Positions 2,567-42,537 of a DNA stretch of 64,000 nt are shown piece by piece. The notes below the pieces were generated by a model that did not search any database, was not told the DNA's origin, and worked only from the letters and a program-made list of their open reading frames with translations. The stretch lies in sequence record PP445229.1; one strand, 5' to 3'. Numbering within the stretch: the stretch's first letter is position 1; every line of letters begins with the position of its first letter. This DNA comes from Escherichia phage EC.W2-6. The position numbers were made by a program, and so were the translations under genes.

Positions 2567-3928
2567 ATGATTGTTATCCCGATTAACCAAATTGAAGATA
2601 AGGTTTCTCAACAACCTGATATCACTGTTGGTCGTCACTTCATTGAGCAATTGATTAATAACAACTTAATTCCAGACGGTATCTGTCCCATCATTACTGG
2701 TGGGGCTGTTCGAGATGCTGTGCTTAATAACACAGCTCCACATGACATTGATATCTTTATTGTCAGAGGACAAACACCAAGAACTCAAAACACATTCATC
2801 CCAACTGACCGTTGGCAAGCTCTTGGAAGAGAGATTGAAAGTAATGTGAAGGAATGGCTAGAGTCACAAGATATCGAGTATGCATCCCTTCTTGCTGAAG
2901 CTACGAACGAATCCTATGCTGGGGGTTCTCAATTAACATTCACTGATATTATTGAGTTTCAGTGGAATGGGGTTCGTATCCAATTCATGTTTAATTATCC
3001 TACTTCTATTGAAGAGGTATTGGATAATTTTCCTATGATGTGTCGTGGTGCGATGACTCTTGACAATTTATTCATGACTTCTCATGGGTATTTGGCTATG
3101 ACCGCCCCCTGTCCAGTGGTTGTTTCTAGTCGTGAAATCAGATACGTTCACAAGAAGTGGCCTAACTCGCAAGTATTGAGATTTTCCTCTCCAGCAGTTG
3201 CACATCAATACATGGCCCAAACTCGATATCTTCCCACACCCCAGCCGGTTAGTCATCTGGTTAATGGATTAGGTCAGGTTTCTCTTATTGAGGATACAAC
3301 AAGTGCTCAATATTGTGTTAACCGAGACATGAGTCGATTCTTTGGAATCCCTTATGAAGAGATTCAGTTAATGTCAAGCATTCATGGCTCTAGCCAGATT
3401 CGTGCATATTGGTCTGAAGGGTTGACAAACTTAACAACTAATACAGGAGGAGATCTCCTTGGTCGAGAAGATGAACCTAATCGGCACAATGCAATTGAAG
3501 GGGTGTTTGTAGCCCCTGCAATGCGCCGAGCACAAGAGTCACGAAGAGTAAGCCCTACTCGTAGAACATCTTTTGAAGAAGCTCTTGGTATTACAAGTGA
3601 TTCTATGGAGAGATGGATGGCTAGTCCTTCTCGTGGTCGTCCAAATGGTTTAACTGTTAGCGCACGTCAGTTCTCTGGTCAGGGTTTTGCTGTTGGTGAT
3701 ATCAACGCACCTGTTAGGGCTGTGTGGACTGATGAAGGTGTGGCCCAAGATGTGGCAGGTAGTCTTGATGTTCCTTCTCATGAGGAACTTGCTGAGACCA
3801 TCAGTCGAAATCTCGCTGACCGCTTTGTTGCTAACAACCCTGAAGTATTAGAACCTCAAACCCGCACAGTTCGGTTTGCCGATGAAGCGGGTCGTGGAAT
3901 CTCTTTTGACATGGAAACAAACAACTAA
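2567..3928 (+). CDS. nucleotidyltransferase, CCA-adding enzyme/poly(A) polymerase head-domain family
   Basis: GGAVRD...HDIDIFI matches the class II CCA/PAP head motif GGxVRD...DxD; ATG at 2567 adjacent to upstream stop. Confidence 0.55.
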   Translation: MIVIPINQIEDKVSQQPDITVGRHFIEQLINNNLIPDGICPIITGGAVRDAVLNNTAPHDIDIFIVRGQTPRTQNTFIPTDRWQALGREIESNVKEWLESQDIEYASLLAEATNESYAGGSQLTFTDIIEFQWNGVRIQFMFNYPTSIEEVLDNFPMMCRGAMTLDNLFMTSHGYLAMTAPCPVVVSSREIRYVHKKWPNSQVLRFSSPAVAHQYMAQTRYLPTPQPVSHLVNGLGQVSLIEDTTSAQYCVNRDMSRFFGIPYEEIQLMSSIHGSSQIRAYWSEGLTNLTTNTGGDLLGREDEPNRHNAIEGVFVAPAMRRAQESRRVSPTRRTSFEEALGITSDSMERWMASPSRGRPNGLTVSARQFSGQGFAVGDINAPVRAVWTDEGVAQDVAGSLDVPSHEELAETISRNLADRFVANNPEVLEPQTRTVRFADEAGRGISFDMETNN

Positions 3929-3937
3929 GGAATAAGA

Positions 3938-4471
3938 ATGAGTTTACTAGGAAGTGTTGAACTGCACGATGTAATTGACAATGGCTATCTGGATGCGGAG
4001 CATAAGTATGTTAACGCTGCTAGTGTGGATATCCGTATTGGTGATACTATCCTTGTTGAAGAACAGGCTGATGGCATCGTTGATATTGATGCGAAAGAGA
4101 ATCTTCAGTGGAAGGAAGTAAAGATTCCTGAAGAGGGTTTGGTTATCACTCCGGGTCAGTTCTTCTTGGCTCACTCTATGGAGGAGTTTAATCTTCCAGA
4201 TAACATCTCAAGTCTGTTTGTTCTGCGTTCATCTATGGCTCGTTGTGGTTTGAACCATCTCCACGCTGGGTGGGCAGACGCAGGGTTTAATAGCAGTAAG
4301 CTGACATTTGAATTCCATAACGTAACCAAGCATCATAGCTTACGAGTTCGTGCTGGTATGCGTGTTGGTCAGATGGTTATGTTTGAGCACTCTCATGCAG
4401 GGGAGCACTCCTATGCAGTGAAGGGTCGTTATAATAACTCTGAAGGTGTAGTTGCATCTAAAGGTGTGTAA
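3938..4471 (+). CDS. dcd: dCTP deaminase / dUTPase-family protein
   Basis: Motifs VDIRIGD, RSSMARCGL, GWADAGF and C-terminal KGRYNNSEGVVASK resemble Dcd. Confidence 0.8.
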   Translation: MSLLGSVELHDVIDNGYLDAEHKYVNAASVDIRIGDTILVEEQADGIVDIDAKENLQWKEVKIPEEGLVITPGQFFLAHSMEEFNLPDNISSLFVLRSSMARCGLNHLHAGWADAGFNSSKLTFEFHNVTKHHSLRVRAGMRVGQMVMFEHSHAGEHSYAVKGRYNNSEGVVASKGV

Positions 4472-4669
4472 ATGAAAAAGTGGATTGTTCGTGTACATGA
4501 TAACACGACTGGAGAGTTAGTAGCTGTAGATTTTGTTAAGACTCGAGAGCACGCACGTAGGGTCAAAAATCAATACAAATCTACTTTTAGACTTAATAAG
4601 GTTACACTAGGAAAAGCTATCGTGAATAGTGAAGGTGCTTTTTGTGTTAACAGTAAGGTTTATTATTAA
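4472..4669 (+). CDS. small protein, tandem paralog 1 of 3 (C-terminal KVYY)
   Basis: 65 aa; shares TR..AR..K core and C-terminal KV.YY with the next two ORFs. Confidence 0.45.
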   Translation: MKKWIVRVHDNTTGELVAVDFVKTREHARRVKNQYKSTFRLNKVTLGKAIVNSEGAFCVNSKVYY

Positions 4670-4878
4670 TGAGACCGATCACTATGAGACAATTTTGGTT
4701 AGCAAAGATTAAGTGGGCATCAGGTGGTATGACTATGACTGCACTACTCACTCGTCAACAGGCTCGAGATTTTAAAAAGTCTATGTTCAATGTAGACTTA
4801 ACTAAGAGCATCAGTATTCATAAGGCCAAGGAGTATTCTTCTGGTCGTGTTTATATCAGCGGAAAGGTACATTACTAA
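4669..4878 (+). CDS. small protein, tandem paralog 2 of 3
   Basis: 69 aa; TAATG stop-start overlap; ends GKVHY. Confidence 0.45.
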   Translation: MRPITMRQFWLAKIKWASGGMTMTALLTRQQARDFKKSMFNVDLTKSISIHKAKEYSSGRVYISGKVHY

Positions 4879-5087
4879 TGAAAAAGATGTGGGCTATTCA
4901 TGTTGTTTGGGATCTTGAGCAACACATGAGAAAAGATAACATCAAATTGTTTGACACTCGCAAAGAGGCTCGTATTGCTAAGAAACAGTTGAAGACTCTG
5001 GGCACAATAGTAAAAAGCGCTGACATACATCGCTGGTATGAAGACCCTAACACTGGTTCTTTTATGTCTAAAGTAATTTACTACTGA
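4878..5087 (+). CDS. small protein, tandem paralog 3 of 3
   Basis: 69 aa; TAATG overlap; ends KVIYY. Confidence 0.45.
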   Translation: MKKMWAIHVVWDLEQHMRKDNIKLFDTRKEARIAKKQLKTLGTIVKSADIHRWYEDPNTGSFMSKVIYY

Positions 5088-5111
5088 TTGGTAGTAGATA
5101 TGATAACTCTC

Positions 5112-5122
5112 AAATGTATATA
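5112..5122 (+). promoter_or_regulatory. candidate phage-specific promoter element (AATGTATA motif)
   Basis: AAATGTATATA about 40 nt upstream of ATG 5160. Confidence 0.3.
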
Positions 5123-5159
5123 GAGTACAATAAGAATTTGTATTTTACAGGAGAGAGTT

Positions 5160-5489
5160 ATGTTAGATTTGAGTAAAGTGGCCCCGCCCACTGAAGAGAT
5201 TACAAAATCCAAGGTGATGCAACAGTTTTATCATCGTGATATGCTTGGTCGCTTTATCAAGAATCGTGATGTTGTTGCTTGGTCTATTGGTAATCAGGGA
5301 TATCTGTTGAAGGTTCTTCAGGTTACAGGCTCAACTGCTAAGCGAGTTAAGGTGTATGACCCTGAAATGGGGCGTTCTAAGTCAGTAGACCCACAGAACT
5401 GCATCGTAATTACCCAGCAGGTAATGGATAATATTGCACGTAACGTTGCTAACTCAGTTGAACTTGATGGAGAAAACCCAAATGCATAA
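5160..5489 (+). CDS. hypothetical protein
   Basis: ORF with GGAGAGAG RBS; no recognisable motif. Confidence 0.4.
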   Translation: MLDLSKVAPPTEEITKSKVMQQFYHRDMLGRFIKNRDVVAWSIGNQGYLLKVLQVTGSTAKRVKVYDPEMGRSKSVDPQNCIVITQQVMDNIARNVANSVELDGENPNA

Positions 5490-6045
5490 GAATGTTTTTG
5501 ATTTACCTGAGATTGGTCGTGACAGTTATAGTATGTTAGACCGGTCTGATCTTTCAATCTCTCGCCTTGAAACAATGCAAGGCATGATTAGTGCAAACAG
5601 CCTAGAACACATCCTGAGCTGCTTACAAGCTAACATGGAACTATTGCATATCAAAGCTAAAAACTACCACTGGAACGTCTCTGGTGCAGGATTTCAGGGT
5701 GTCCATGGTATGTTTGATGAGCTGGAAGATTACGCACGACAGGTAGGAGATCGTATTGCTGAACGTATGCGTTACCACTGTGTTAAAGTGGATGCTACAG
5801 CAGCTAATTATCTTTCTCATGCTTGGTTCTCAGAGGGGAATGCTGATCTAGACATGGACGGTATGCTCTCTGATATGTGCATGACCTTGATGTGTATTAT
5901 TGAGAAGATGGATGAGTTTGATGGTGATTTAGCCTCCCACCCTGTCGATCAGAGTATGCTTCAAGAAATTAATGAAGGTCTTGGCAAGTATTGCTACTTC
6001 GTCAAGAGCAACATGTCCCATTCAAGTGGTGACGTGTCTTACTAA
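5482..6045 (+). CDS. Dps/ferritin-like protein
   Basis: KNYHWNVSGAGFQGVHGMFDE...DRIAER parallels the Dps ferroxidase region (HWN..G..F..VHE..D...AER); ATG at 5482 overlaps upstream stop. Confidence 0.55.
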   Translation: MHKNVFDLPEIGRDSYSMLDRSDLSISRLETMQGMISANSLEHILSCLQANMELLHIKAKNYHWNVSGAGFQGVHGMFDELEDYARQVGDRIAERMRYHCVKVDATAANYLSHAWFSEGNADLDMDGMLSDMCMTLMCIIEKMDEFDGDLASHPVDQSMLQEINEGLGKYCYFVKSNMSHSSGDVSY

Positions 6046-39978: not shown

Positions 39979-42537
39979 TTACTCAGAAGGCATTTCAACA
40001 CGAACTGAAATAAAAGCATCACTCGGGATATCAATAGGATCACCGTCAGAAAAACCTTCTATCTCATTTCTAGAAAAAACCGGAGAGGTTGGATGGGTTC
40101 TGTGATAGGTTTTAACTAAAATAGAACCATCTTCTTTAATCTCATAGTCCAGCCAAACCCTAGGTTGTTTGTTGCGGTCAGTAGGGATTTCAAAGCCGCC
40201 GTCAATGCCTCCCCATTTTGCATCTGCGTTTAAGCCAAGGCAACCGGTAATCAAGTACTCACCAACACCTTGCCGAATGACATTAACCCCCTCAGATTCC
40301 TCGTTCGTCTCATATCGACCGTCGGAGTAAATATGAACTACCGGAGATGCCGCTTTGATAAATCCGTTTACATCAACAGTGGTGTTTTTGTTTGTAAGAC
40401 AATGGACATATTTTATTGTTCCGTCTGCAATCTTTATTGCGTAAGATATGCGACCGTATTGTGAGGCTTCGCCACCAGACCCTGCATATGACACACCGTG
40501 GGCAATCCAGAAGTTAGTATCCTCTGGCTGCATATACCAGTAGCAGTTAAACAAGTCTAAAGTAAACAGGCCGTTCCCGGAGGCATGTTGGACACGATCC
40601 CCAGTACCACCTACGCCTGAATTTGCTGGGGTGTTACTTAGCGCTCCAATATTGAACCTTGCACCAGCAGCATCTCCAGCCCCTGTCCCACCATTAGCAA
40701 TAGGTACATTATCCAGAGTAGAAACACTTCCCAACCCTAGATTAGAACGAGCACTAGCAGCATTTTTAGCTCCAGTGCCTCCTCTTTCAACACCTAGAGC
40801 CAAATCGCCAACTCTTCCAGGCGAGGTACTGTAACATCCCCACCCATTATTATCCACAAAGAGGTAGGTTTCTTTGTTAGGAGATAGTAATCTACTCTCC
40901 CCAGAGGCTTGATCAACTCTATCTATAGATAAATTGGAACGAGCAGCATCAACAGTAGTTGCCCCTGTACCACCATTAGCTATAGGAATTGTGTTGAGTG
41001 TAGCTATGGAGCTTAGACCTAGATTAGAACGAGCACTAGCAGCGTCTTTAGCTCCAGTGCCTCCTTGTGTGACAGACAGTGCTGTAGTGAGTCCCGTGAG
41101 GGATGTTATATCAGAGTTTGTACCAGAAGCGGCAGCACCTAAAATTGATCTGGAGATGTTCACATTACCAGTAATCTCATCAGGAGCTTGGTTATTTACA
41201 GTAACAACATAAGGTTTCTGAGCCTGTACAGACCCATTGTACTGAGAGTCTTTATCAGAATCTGGTGCTCTTATTGCCTCCCCTCCAGTCCAATCAGGAA
41301 GTCGAATGTTGATAAAATTAGTAGAATCTGCATCGGTAATACCATCTGCCAATTTACCCCAAGAGAAGTATTGTTTAGCCCCTGCTTGCCATTCAGTTTC
41401 AGAAACAACAGGAAGTTGTCCACTGACAAGGGATGGGCCTAAATCTGAAGCAGACTCTTTAGACACTAGACGACCATCGGCTGGAAGAACGCCCGGATAG
41501 GAGATATTCTTTGTTGGGTCATAAGGGAACATTACCATCTCACCAAGATATAGAGAAGGGTTTCCTGTTGGAATGGTAATGTCAATATTACCACTGGAGT
41601 CTGGAGAACGGGAATTAACAGTAAGAATTCTACCTTCAGTTTTAACAGGAGTTAATGTTTTGTTAGCAGCAACAGTATAAAATTCATACTTAGTAGCTTC
41701 CCAAACTAAGACCTTCTCACCAACTTGGCGATACTGAGCGTCAGCATCAGCTTCTGCTTTAGATTGATATGTCTTGGTGGTTTTATCAAACTTGTCATTA
41801 ATCTCTTGACGACTGTACTGAGCAACGTTCAGAACATTTCCTAAACCTACCGTCTCTTTGTTAAGCGTTAGAGCAACCTCTCCATCAAGAGCTGGACCGC
41901 CGTTAATAGAGACAGAACGGACAGATGGGATTAAGTTAGCAATGTTATCTAGAGTAGTTTTGTGGACGGTGTTGTCATCTTTGTCAACATAGAAACCTAA
42001 ATCACCTAGCTCTGGAACACCTGTAGGTGCTGTATCCAAATCCTTAACAGAACCATCTTTTCCGGGATCACCTTCTGGAATACCTAAAGAGATTACACCA
42101 GTGTTAGGATTAAAAGAGCCAGTAGCTGGAGTTCCCGGAGGGAGAGTTGTTACATCAACAGACATTCCTAACAGAACATCAAGCTGATTCTGGACTTCAA
42201 TAAGTTTTTGGTTAATGAGAGCAACGGCATTATTAGCATCCGATACTGCTGCGTTGGTTTGGGCAATCAGAGTCATCAAACGAGCATCTTGATCCTTAAA
42301 ATCCTGCTTAAGATCTTCAATATCCTGCTTCATCAGAACACCCTGTTGATATAGACGCTCTACTTCAGCGATTAAATCATCAATTGTACCAAACTTAGAT
42401 TCTGCTAGCAGTGCCCAATATTTGGAGTCAGCTGCATATTCTGCTGCTTGCTTGTAAGCTCCGATAGAGCCTTCAGTAGCACCAAACTGCCCAACGTTAT
42501 TCACTGCATCAGGTGCTTGGTTATTATAAACGATCAT
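39979..42537 (-). CDS. tail fibre protein with internal repeats
   Basis: Two copies of GGTGAK.AASARSNLGL...IANGGTGA repeat; coiled-coil N-terminal region. Confidence 0.7.
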   Translation of the reverse strand: MIVYNNQAPDAVNNVGQFGATEGSIGAYKQAAEYAADSKYWALLAESKFGTIDDLIAEVERLYQQGVLMKQDIEDLKQDFKDQDARLMTLIAQTNAAVSDANNAVALINQKLIEVQNQLDVLLGMSVDVTTLPPGTPATGSFNPNTGVISLGIPEGDPGKDGSVKDLDTAPTGVPELGDLGFYVDKDDNTVHKTTLDNIANLIPSVRSVSINGGPALDGEVALTLNKETVGLGNVLNVAQYSRQEINDKFDKTTKTYQSKAEADADAQYRQVGEKVLVWEATKYEFYTVAANKTLTPVKTEGRILTVNSRSPDSSGNIDITIPTGNPSLYLGEMVMFPYDPTKNISYPGVLPADGRLVSKESASDLGPSLVSGQLPVVSETEWQAGAKQYFSWGKLADGITDADSTNFINIRLPDWTGGEAIRAPDSDKDSQYNGSVQAQKPYVVTVNNQAPDEITGNVNISRSILGAAASGTNSDITSLTGLTTALSVTQGGTGAKDAASARSNLGLSSIATLNTIPIANGGTGATTVDAARSNLSIDRVDQASGESRLLSPNKETYLFVDNNGWGCYSTSPGRVGDLALGVERGGTGAKNAASARSNLGLGSVSTLDNVPIANGGTGAGDAAGARFNIGALSNTPANSGVGGTGDRVQHASGNGLFTLDLFNCYWYMQPEDTNFWIAHGVSYAGSGGEASQYGRISYAIKIADGTIKYVHCLTNKNTTVDVNGFIKAASPVVHIYSDGRYETNEESEGVNVIRQGVGEYLITGCLGLNADAKWGGIDGGFEIPTDRNKQPRVWLDYEIKEDGSILVKTYHRTHPTSPVFSRNEIEGFSDGDPIDIPSDAFISVRVEMPSE

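What the first reader, a model, noticed from the sequence alone, without database searches (positions are those of the whole stretch)
4472..5087. Three back-to-back paralogous mini-genes with TAATG overlaps and a conserved KV(Y/H)Y C-terminus
Three 65-69-aa ORFs in a row, each starting on the previous stop, share a basic TR..AR..K segment and an identical-style C-terminal tail. Triplication with translational coupling implies dosage or diversification pressure. Function is unknown.
Basis: seen in the sequence. Interest (0 to 1): 0.45.

Follow-up and report, generated by a model that had tools for sequence, protein, structure and literature searches.

The report
Tandem small basic phage paralogue genes
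Three neighbouring mini-genes of a phiEco32-like E. coli phage are real, anciently duplicated copies of one small, highly basic protein family found only in this phage group; their function is untested, so this is a tidy but fairly ordinary case of a phage-specific gene family.

Summary
ORFs 4472-4669, 4669-4878 and 4878-5087 (65/69/69 aa) are orthologues of phiEco32 genes 71, 70 and 69, annotated as hypothetical proteins. They are true paralogues: a profile built from one type alone finds the other two (E 2e-7 to 3e-3), and all three fall in PHROG 4939. The two internal junctions are 1-nt TAATG overlaps.

The family is confined to phiEco32-like phages: 29 clusters among 1.84 billion proteins. 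It sits between dCTP deaminase and the known middle promoter P68. Copy number is 2-5, with position-specific orthologues shared across genera. The duplication is therefore old diversification, not dosage.

- **Selection:** dN/dS is 0.07-0.6, against 0.11 or less for the flanking genes.
- **Coupling:** the conserved Lys-Val tail codons (AAG GTx) double as the Shine-Dalgarno site of the next gene, in 25/26 internal versus 6/23 terminal genes.
- **Structure:** AlphaFold predicts a beta-beta-alpha-beta-beta module (pLDDT 80-87) with no informative structural or sequence relative.
- **Charge:** invariant T-R-x-x-A-R-x-x-K lies on the polar face of the helix, and pI is about 10.

My best guess is polyanion, probably nucleic-acid, binding, at low confidence. 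Interest is modest.

The parts
3938..4471 (+). dCTP deaminase gene (phiEco32 gene 72 orthologue). It is the upstream neighbour in the same operon, and its stop TAA (4469-4471) abuts the g1 ATG.
   Evidence: Pfam PF22769 E 3.5e-34; phiEco32 annotation; sequence.
4460..4466 (+). Shine-Dalgarno-like AAAGGTG for g1, lying inside the last codons of the dCTP deaminase gene.
   Evidence: Read from the sequence.
4472..4669 (+). g1, type A mini-gene (65 aa, pI 10.1), orthologue of phi32_71. Motif residues are T24 R25 A28 R29 K32; the tail is SKVYY.
   Evidence: dN/dS against relatives is 0.08-0.36.
4655..4659 (+). AAGGT, the codons of K62-V63 of g1. It doubles as the Shine-Dalgarno core for g2, 9 nt before the g2 ATG.
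   Evidence: Family-wide test.
4667..4671 (+). TAATG: the g1 stop and the g2 start share A4669.
   Evidence: Every junction inside the dcd-slot arrays tabulated (19 loci) shows the same 1-nt overlap, TAATG or TGATG.
4669..4878 (+). g2, type B mini-gene (69 aa, pI 10.6), orthologue of phi32_70. Motif residues are T28 R29 A32 R33 K36; the tail is GKVHY. The first six residues (MRPITM) are a disordered extension, and the internal Met6 (ATG 4684) aligns with the other paralogues' start.
   Evidence: AlphaFold model pLDDT 87.3. dN/dS 0.07-0.31.
4864..4868 (+). AAGGT, the codons of K66-V67 of g2. It doubles as the Shine-Dalgarno core for g3, 9 nt before the g3 ATG.
4876..4880 (+). TAATG: the g2 stop and the g3 start share A4878.
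4878..5087 (+). g3, type C mini-gene (69 aa, pI 9.8), orthologue of phi32_69 and last cistron of the array. Motif residues are T27 R28 A31 R32 K35; the tail is SKVIYY. Its Lys codon is AAA, so no Shine-Dalgarno core is present.
   Evidence: AlphaFold model pLDDT 79.7. dN/dS 0.15-0.63.
5112..5120 (+). aAATGTATA, the element of the gp36-dependent middle promoter P68. It marks the start of the next transcription unit and therefore the 3' boundary of the unit that carries the array.
   Evidence: Motif match. The core motif [A/G/T]AATGTATA is conserved in all relatives examined. Consensus tAATGTAtA is given in PMC8948821. P68 was used as a middle promoter in PMC12276001.
5103..5161 (+). Conserved hairpin. 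The 5' arm (5103-5111, ATAACTCTC) pairs with the 3' arm (5153-5161, GAGAGTTAT). The 3' arm covers most of the Shine-Dalgarno site and the first two bases of the start codon of the next gene, and the P68 element lies in the loop. The hairpin would silence gene 68 on read-through RNA coming from the array.
   Evidence: z-score -3.7 to -5.1, with compensatory changes in four of the seven sequence variants.
5160..5489 (+). Gene 68 orthologue (109 aa). It is the conserved downstream neighbour, is not a family member, and is the first gene transcribed from P68.
   Evidence: dN/dS 0-0.11.

Best explanation
What it is. The three ORFs are real protein-coding genes, orthologues of phiEco32 genes 71, 70 and 69. 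They form an old tandem array of diverged paralogues of one family that is restricted to phiEco32-like phages.

How it is expressed (architecture shown, coupling inferred). The array lies at the 3' end of the polycistronic mRNA that also carries primase/helicase, exonuclease, nucleotidyltransferase and dCTP deaminase. Ribosomes finishing one cistron probably restart on the next. The evidence for this is the 1-nt stop/start overlap (TAATG) and the Shine-Dalgarno core AAGGT, which is encoded by the conserved Lys-Val codons of the preceding gene's tail. Translation of this unit ends with g3. The next gene has its own promoter (P68), and on read-through RNA its ribosome-binding site is buried in a hairpin.

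What the proteins do (inferred, untested). Each product is a polycationic beta-beta-alpha-beta-beta module of about 8 kDa. I think it most likely binds a polyanion, probably DNA or RNA, during the replication and nucleotide-metabolism phase. Binding would use the invariant T-R-x-x-A-R-x-x-K stripe on the exposed side of its single helix, together with conserved basic residues on strands 1 and 3. The variable loops and C-terminal halves would give each paralogue (types A, B, C and more) its own specificity.
For: Identity and reality of the genes:
- The window is a Kuravirus, 100% identical to phage EC.W8-1 and 96.5% to phiEco32 over the region.
- Synteny with phi32_71, 70 and 69 is exact.
- The ORFs stay open in all relatives examined, and dN/dS is 0.07-0.63.

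Paralogy:
- Shown: - Position-specific clades A, B and C span Kuravirus, Nieuwekanaalvirus and Suseptimavirus, with bootstrap support 54-68 where a clade was recovered at 50% or more.

Restricted distribution and fixed slot:
- Only 29 clusters (50% identity) match among 1.84e9 proteins.
- A second profile search found nothing new and no fused domains.
- Every member looked up lies in dcd-[array]-gene68-Dps synteny or between thioredoxin and ThyX.

Coupling:
- All junctions within the dcd-slot arrays tabulated have a 1-nt overlap.
- A Shine-Dalgarno core is present in the tail codons of 25 of 26 internal genes against 6 of 23 last genes, p 4e-7. On unique tails the counts are 12 of 13 against 3 of 12, p 0.001.
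- No promoter or terminator signal above chance lies inside the array.

Boundary: the P68 motif and the hairpin.

Fold: two independent models give the same topology, pLDDT 79.7 and 87.3.

Polyanion-binding inference:
- pI is 9.8-10.6, with 13-14 K+R against 3-8 D+E per protein.
- The invariant residues R28, R32 and K35, plus conserved K36 and K39, sit at polar positions of the helix. The hydrophobic positions are 31, 34, 38 and 41.
- K3, R/K8, K47, H51, K/R52 and K66 are also conserved.
- Invariant surface charges shared by paralogues that are otherwise about 25% identical point to a shared kind of ligand.
Against: - There is no direct evidence for any activity.
- No sequence relative exists in Pfam, NCBIfam or PDB.
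- Many small phage proteins are basic, so charge alone is weak evidence.
- Mass spectrometry of SU10 preparations detected 34 phage proteins, including the products of genes 65, 67 and 68, but none of the three mini-genes (PMC4281155).
- Fast evolution, variable copy number and mosaic segments fit host-interaction genes at least as well.
- In one divergent lineage the copies are separated by 12 nt rather than overlapping, so overlap coupling is not universal.
- The temporal class is uncertain. One paper places this region among the middle genes by position, while the SU10 paper lists nearby gene 74 as early.
Confidence: 0.4

Rival explanations
1. The proteins are inhibitors or modulators of host proteins, acting by protein-protein contact. 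Targets could be host takeover factors or anti-defence targets, with each paralogue aimed at a different host target or allele. This is the pattern of the small overlapping genes 5.5, 5.7 and 5.9 that follow the T7 DNA polymerase gene, and of T4 Dmd (comparison from my own knowledge).
For: - dN/dS is up to 0.63, against 0.11 or less for the flanking genes.
- Copy number ranges from 2 to 5, and some phages carry a second array.
- Segments of g2 and g3 occur in all four combinations among phages, which indicates recombination.
- The proteins are small, single-domain and lineage-restricted.
Against: - Every paralogue keeps the same invariant basic motif, which suggests one kind of ligand rather than many different targets.
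- Types B and C are present in all the Gordonclarkvirinae loci examined, in the same order, so they behave like near-core genes.
- The array sits in the replication and nucleotide-metabolism block, not in the variable early host-takeover region.
- The fold matches are at noise level for 50-60 residue domains.
Confidence: 0.3
2. The paralogues are subunits of one hetero-oligomer, made in fixed proportion through coupled translation. The complex would act as an accessory to the phage replication or nucleotide-synthesis machinery.
For: - Stop/start overlaps are typical of genes whose products are needed in set ratios.
- The order B then C is conserved across genera.
- The conserved C-terminal K-V-x-Y tail is predicted with low confidence in the g3 model, as expected for a segment that orders only on binding a partner.
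- The array always lies directly after the dCTP deaminase gene in this subfamily.
Against: - A copy number anywhere from 2 to 5 is hard to fit to a fixed complex.
- Type A is missing from Suseptimavirus and from some Kuravirus genomes.
- Variable segments of g2 and g3 recombine freely, with no sign of co-variation.
- Phage 7-11 has a single distant copy at another locus.
- No multimer model could be run.
Confidence: 0.15
3. The ORFs are not functional genes. The region would instead be a DNA- or RNA-level element, such as iterons, an origin or a structured RNA, or simply chance open frames.
For: - G+C is slightly lower (35-40%) than the window mean of 42%.
- No peptides were reported in the SU10 proteomics.
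Against: - The frames stay open, and dN/dS is below 1, across relatives whose synonymous divergence exceeds 1.
- Profile E-values between paralogues reach 2e-7.
- There are no direct, inverted or tandem DNA repeats linking the three units.
- Rfam gives no match.
- AlphaFold predicts a confident, consistent fold.
Confidence: 0.02

Closest known systems
phiEco32 genes 71, 70, 69 (YP_001671816, YP_001671815, YP_001671814) and PHROG family phrog_4939
   Same: These are the same genes. Order and lengths are identical, and g3 is 98.6% identical to phi32_69. All three window proteins match phrog_4939 over their full length at about 1e-27.
   Different: Nothing differs in kind. Both the GenBank records and PHROGs list them only as hypothetical or unknown function. 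No paper in the searchable library discusses them.
Small overlapping genes after the T7 DNA polymerase gene (5.3, 5.5, 5.7, 5.9), from my own knowledge
   Same: Both are runs of very small genes embedded in a podophage replication block. Both are closely packed, are expressed from the replication-phase mRNA and are non-structural.
   Different: The T7 genes are unrelated to each other and to this family. Their products bind host proteins (H-NS, sigma-S RNA polymerase, RecBCD), and gp5.9 is acidic. Here the genes are paralogues and all are strongly basic. No sequence or fold link was found.
T4 Dmd antitoxin (PDB 5hy3 chain B)
   Different: Sequence identity is 6%. It was not among the 60 matches listed for the g3 model, and the score is in the range of many unrelated folds. 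There is no evidence of toxin-antitoxin context here.
Translationally coupled overlapping cistrons (ATGA/TAATG type) in bacterial and phage operons, from my own knowledge
   Same: The stop and start codons share a base, a Shine-Dalgarno site lies within the upstream coding sequence, and there is no intergenic space.
   Different: Here the Shine-Dalgarno site is built from the codons of a conserved C-terminal peptide motif (Lys-Val). The same bases are therefore constrained twice, and the junction is regenerated at each tandem duplication.

Membership tests
phrog_4939 / phiEco32 gp69-71 family | Full-length match to the family profile | tested here: met
   E 1.2e-27, 1.5e-26 and 1.7e-28, each covering essentially the whole 67-position profile. 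Own family profile gives E 1e-22 to 1e-24.
phrog_4939 / phiEco32 gp69-71 family | Invariant W (strand 1) and T-R-x-x-A-R-x-x-K (start of the helix) | tested here: met
   Present in all three window proteins. W, T, R, R and K are invariant in 38 to 44 diverse members, and A is present in 36 of 38.
phrog_4939 / phiEco32 gp69-71 family | Genomic slot between the dCTP deaminase gene and gene 68/Dps-like gene in a phiEco32-like genome | tested here: met
   Window order is dcd (3938-4471), the array, P68, then gene 68 (5160-5489). The same order holds in 20 or more relatives.
Translationally coupled overlapping cistrons | Stop and start codons overlap on the same strand, with a Shine-Dalgarno site inside the upstream gene | tested here: met
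   TAATG at 4667-4671 and 4876-4880. AAGGT lies 9 nt upstream of each ATG. Enrichment in internal versus last genes gives p 4e-7.
Translationally coupled overlapping cistrons | Downstream translation depends on translation of the upstream cistron | not testable with these tools
   Needs reporter fusions carrying premature stop codons upstream.
Any Pfam, NCBIfam or PDB-represented family | Significant profile or sequence match | tested here: not met
   No Pfam hit below E 0.03 for any of 38 members, and no family matched by more than one member. NCBIfam gave the same result, apart from one family matched by two members at E 0.02. The best PDB sequence match was E 0.17.
GIY-YIG homing endonuclease (lead from a weak T-even tblastn hit) | GIY and YIG motifs, catalytic Arg/Glu/Asn, and a significant alignment | tested here: not met
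AP2 / integrase-N-terminal type three-stranded-sheet DNA-binding domain (lead from pattern resemblance) | Profile match to PF00847 or relatives; beta-beta-beta-alpha topology | tested here: not met
T4 Dmd-like antitoxins | Fold match well above background, plus a cognate RnlA/LsoA-type toxin target | tested here: inconclusive

The most novel reading that the evidence does not exclude
The array is an expandable toolkit of small polycationic proteins. All members would share one binding chemistry (the invariant T-R-x-x-A-R-x-x-K helix), while the variable loops let each neutralise or redirect a different host nucleic-acid-linked factor. Candidate targets include nucleases, nucleotide-depleting defences and nucleoid proteins. 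That would make it a previously unrecognised anti-defence or host-takeover family, hidden inside the replication operon rather than in the early region.
Probability: 0.12. Interest if true: 0.6.

Novelty: new member of a known kind. Interest (0 to 1): 0.27.

Why it matters
Kuraviruses are being isolated widely as therapeutic candidates against pathogenic E. coli, yet about half of their genes have no known function. This work makes four modest advances.

- It turns three anonymous "hypothetical proteins" into one defined family, with a signature motif, a predicted fold, a copy-number range and clear orthologue types.
- It shows that the family is semi-core: types B and C are present in all the Gordonclarkvirinae loci examined.
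- It gives concrete residues to mutate, R28, R32 and K35 in g3 numbering.
- It shows how a conserved peptide tail and a ribosome-binding site can be written in the same bases.

None of this overturns current understanding. The value is in annotation and in pointing to a cheap set of experiments.

Tried and rejected
- **Pfam, NCBIfam and PDB sequence searches.** I ran these with single proteins and with every member of a 38-sequence alignment. Nothing consistent came up.
- **Foldseek against viral models.** It returned only family members plus uncharacterised proteins of 7-11-like, Cronobacter and Aeromonas phages.
- **afdb50 fold library.** It was not available.
- **T-even phage tblastn hits (E 0.3).** They fall inside a GIY-YIG-type homing endonuclease and score 6 bits with the family profile, so I rejected them as chance.
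- **DNA-level repeat, tandem repeat or structured RNA as the real feature.** None was found inside the array.
- **Sigma-70 promoter and terminator scans.** Counts were not above the shuffled expectation, and nothing lay inside the array on the coding strand.
- **Programmed -1 frameshifting.** Each gene lies in the -1 frame of the previous one, but I saw no slippery heptamer at either junction by eye. The 79-aa variants P0108 and P0111 look like indel read-throughs.
- **Primary phiEco32 papers (PMC2587145, PMC3275717).** They are not held, so the macroarray class of genes 69-71 could not be read.
- **Supplements of PMC9965538.** They had no entry for these genes.

Full report
**Where we are.** The window is a Kuravirus, a phiEco32-like podophage of E. 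coli in the subfamily Gordonclarkvirinae. Bases 3900-5500 are 100% identical to phage EC.W8-1 and 96.5% identical to phiEco32. The three ORFs of the finding line up one-to-one with phiEco32 genes phi32_71, phi32_70 and phi32_69. All three are annotated as hypothetical proteins and carry the same label in every other record inspected.

The upstream genes are primase/helicase, the 3'-5' exonuclease subunit, a CCA-adding-like nucleotidyltransferase and dCTP deaminase. The downstream genes are gene 68, a Dps/ferritin-like gene, thioredoxin and ThyX.

**Checking the observation.**
- The ORFs are g1 4472-4669 (65 aa), g2 4669-4878 (69 aa) and g3 4878-5087 (69 aa).
- TAATG occurs at 4667-4671 and 4876-4880, so stop and start share one base.
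- g1 starts directly after the dCTP deaminase stop, without overlap.
- All three carry T-R-x-x-A-R-x-x-K and end in KVYY, KVHY or KVIYY.

Pairwise BLASTP is weak (E 4e-4, 1e-3, 0.09). All three match PHROG phrog_4939 at about 1e-27, but that profile contains their orthologues, so the match is partly circular. I therefore built profiles from orthologues of one type only. Each profile picks the other two window genes as the best non-self hits among 1737 ORFs, with E from 2e-7 to 3e-3. The next window ORF scores 0.37 or worse. The paralogy is real, and there is no fourth copy in the window.

**Are they genes?** Yes, as far as sequence can show.
- The frames remain open in every relative examined, including lineages whose synonymous divergence from the window exceeds 1.
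- dN/dS against relatives is 0.08-0.36 for g1, 0.07-0.31 for g2 and 0.15-0.63 for g3. The flanking dCTP deaminase and gene 68 give 0-0.11. The mini-genes are therefore under purifying selection but evolve much faster than their neighbours.
- There is no DNA-level repeat, tandem repeat or Rfam match in the region.
- AlphaFold predicts the same compact fold for g3 (pLDDT 79.7) and g2 (pLDDT 87.3): strand, strand, helix, strand, strand.
- The only negative point is proteomic. Mass spectrometry of phage SU10 preparations detected the products of genes 65, 67 and 68 but none of these three. That experiment was aimed at virions.

**Distribution.** An exhaustive profile search of 1.84 billion representative proteins found only 29 clusters at E 1e-3 or better, all 65-82 aa. 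Two index-based profile searches of 5.8 billion proteins found 111 and 90 clusters. All were 48-87 aa, none had a Pfam domain, none was fused to anything, and none had a name other than hypothetical, uncharacterised or "phage protein".

Every distant member I traced to a contig lies in a kuravirus-like genome at one of two places. The first is between the dCTP deaminase gene and the gene 68/Dps pair. The second is between thioredoxin and ThyX.

Copy number in the first slot varies:
- 2 in SU7, PAS59, EcoN5, pEC-N1203-2Af.1 and two divergent metagenomic lineages;
- 3 in phiEco32, Bas90, EP335, NJ01, IMEP8, WFI101126, the window and one divergent metagenomic contig (L008);
- 4 in contig L007;
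- 5 in the 87-kb contig L023.

The second slot holds one copy in ECBP2 itself and two in the related metagenomic contigs. Salmonella phage 7-11, of the family Grimontviridae, has one distant copy (E 1e-6) at a different locus, and RefSeq does not annotate it. Foldseek against viral models also picks out uncharacterised proteins of 7-11-like, Cronobacter and Aeromonas phages.

**Age of the duplication.** The window paralogues are 22-25% identical. In a neighbour-joining tree the sequences group by position rather than by phage. The type A clade (g1-like) has bootstrap support 68. The type C clade (g3-like, all three genera) has support 54. Type B (g2-like) also groups across the three genera, but that grouping did not reach 50% support; its Kuravirus/Nieuwekanaalvirus subclade has 60. 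Support is modest because the proteins are short.

Types B and C occur in all the Gordonclarkvirinae loci examined, always in the order B then C. Type A is limited to Kuravirus and Nieuwekanaalvirus and is missing from some Kuravirus genomes. This is old duplication followed by divergence. It is not recent amplification for dosage.

Segments inside g2 (SMFNMDMIKS versus TMLTGDVVNS) and g3 (EDPNTGSF... versus EFSEGTCML...) occur in all four combinations among phages. Recombination therefore shuffles them independently.

**How the array is expressed.** Across the dcd-slot arrays tabulated from 19 loci, every internal junction is a 1-nt overlap, TAATG or TGATG. The bases AAGGT, 9 nt upstream of the g2 and g3 start codons, are the codons of the conserved Lys-Val in the preceding protein's tail.

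Family-wide, a Shine-Dalgarno core sits in the tail codons of 25 of 26 genes that are followed by another copy. It sits there in only 6 of 23 genes that are last in their array, Fisher p 4e-7. Counting unique tails only, the figures are 12 of 13 against 3 of 12, p 0.001. Last genes often use AAA for the lysine, or drop it altogether.

The tail motif is thus constrained twice. It is a peptide, because it persists, though less strictly, in last genes. It is also the ribosome-binding site for the next cistron. An in-register tandem duplication recreates the junction automatically. Actual dependence of downstream translation on upstream translation is inferred, not shown. In one divergent lineage the two copies are 12 nt apart.

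**The 3' boundary.** The 72-nt spacer after g3 is more conserved than the mini-genes themselves. It contains aAATGTATA at 5112-5120, which matches the consensus tAATGTAtA of promoters read by the phage sigma factor gp36. "P68" is used as a phiEco32 middle promoter in a 2025 structural study.

The array is therefore the end of the upstream unit, which carries the replication and nucleotide genes. No sigma-70-like promoter or intrinsic terminator above chance lies within it.

The published temporal class for this stretch is inconsistent in the papers I could read. It is called middle by position in one, while gene 74 is listed as early in another. The primary transcription paper is not held.

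The informative signal is in the alignment. The proteins have pI 9.8-10.6. In 38 diverse members the invariant positions are W5, T27, R28, R32 and K35, with A31 nearly so (g3 numbering). Along the helix the hydrophobic positions are 31, 34, 38 and 41. R28, R32, K35, K36 and K39 fall on the polar side. K3, R/K8, K47, H51, K/R52 and K66 are also conserved, and only E30 and E55 are commonly acidic.

Surface charges that stay invariant while everything else drifts to about 25% identity suggest that all paralogues bind the same kind of negatively charged ligand. Given the replication and nucleotide-metabolism setting, nucleic acid is my first choice. I put this at about 0.4. The gene, paralogue and coupling architecture I put near 0.9.

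**Rivals.**
- Host-protein inhibitors (about 0.3). This fits the fast evolution, variable copy number and mosaicism. It fits less well with a shared invariant motif and with near-core status.
- A fixed hetero-oligomer (about 0.15). This fits the coupling and the conserved order. It does not fit a copy number of 2-5 or the independent shuffling of segments.
- A non-coding or chance feature. This is effectively excluded.

**Side finding.** The P68 element sits in the loop of a conserved hairpin. Its 5' arm (5103-5111, ATAACTCTC) pairs with 5153-5161 (GAGAGTTAT), which covers most of the Shine-Dalgarno site and the first two bases of the gene 68 start codon.
- Folding energy is -19.5 kcal/mol, with z-scores from -3.7 to -5.1 in four phages.
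- Seven distinct sequence variants all keep an outer stem of 9-14 pairs.
- Four of the variants carry compensatory changes, and one (L025) has completely different arms.

RNA reading through from the mini-gene array would have the gene 68 ribosome-binding site closed. RNA started at P68, 6-8 nt downstream of the element, lacks the 5' arm. This is the logic described for the T4 lysozyme gene (my own knowledge). If so, it is a further example of a known mechanism rather than a new one.

**Verdict.** The genes are already annotated but uncharacterised. They form a lineage-restricted family of small basic proteins, a common kind of thing in phage genomes, so interest is modest.

Noticed in passing
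window 5103-5161 (arms 5103-5111 and 5153-5161; promoter element 5112-5120; gene 68 ATG 5160): A conserved hairpin encloses the middle promoter P68 and pairs upstream sequence with the Shine-Dalgarno site and start codon of gene 68. Seven sequence variants in relatives keep the stem, four of them with compensatory changes and one with entirely different arms. The likely effect is that gene 68 is translated only from P68-initiated RNA and not from read-through RNA, as described for the T4 lysozyme gene.
   Followed up: partly
L013 (Salmonella phage 7-11, NC_015938) 40945-41166, minus strand: A 73-aa ORF with the family motif (KTRAEARAHKK) matches the family profile at E 1e-6. RefSeq does not annotate it. 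It lies between gp054 and gp055 and overlaps the 3' end of gp055.
   Followed up: partly
L023 5765-6912; L007 64-915; L009 9771-10213: The family expands to five tandem copies in an 87-kb metagenomic contig and to four in another contig, all joined by 1-nt overlaps. ECBP2-like phages carry a second array between thioredoxin and ThyX: one copy in ECBP2 itself and two copies, separated by 14 nt, in related contigs.
   Followed up: yes
window 4669-5087 compared with L001, L002, L007, L015, L017, L018, L019: The middle of g2 and the C-terminal third of g3 each exist in two sharply different versions. The versions occur in all four combinations among closely related phages, which indicates recombination within these tiny genes.
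   Followed up: partly
window 5434-6045 and its homologues in PQ030848, OQ921332, NC_070993, NC_070986: The Dps/ferritin-like gene (phiEco32 gene 67, Pfam PF00210 in metagenomic copies) is labelled 'integrase' in several GenBank and RefSeq records. This is probably an annotation error that has been copied between records.
   Followed up: no
L015, L018 and L019 892-1098; L017 315-1250; L004 2098-2289: The dcd-to-array junction is an insertion hotspot. Some Kuraviruses carry an unrelated acidic 68-aa gene there. EcoN5 carries an HNH endonuclease plus two unrelated small genes in place of type A. ECBP2 has a small gene that looks membrane-spanning.
   Followed up: no
proteins P0108 and P0111 (79 aa, metagenomic): These g1 variants change frame near the C-terminus and read across the g1/g2 junction (…LPTVRFIINETDH…). 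They are probably indels or assembly errors. I saw no slippery site at the junction that would suggest programmed frameshifting.
   Followed up: no
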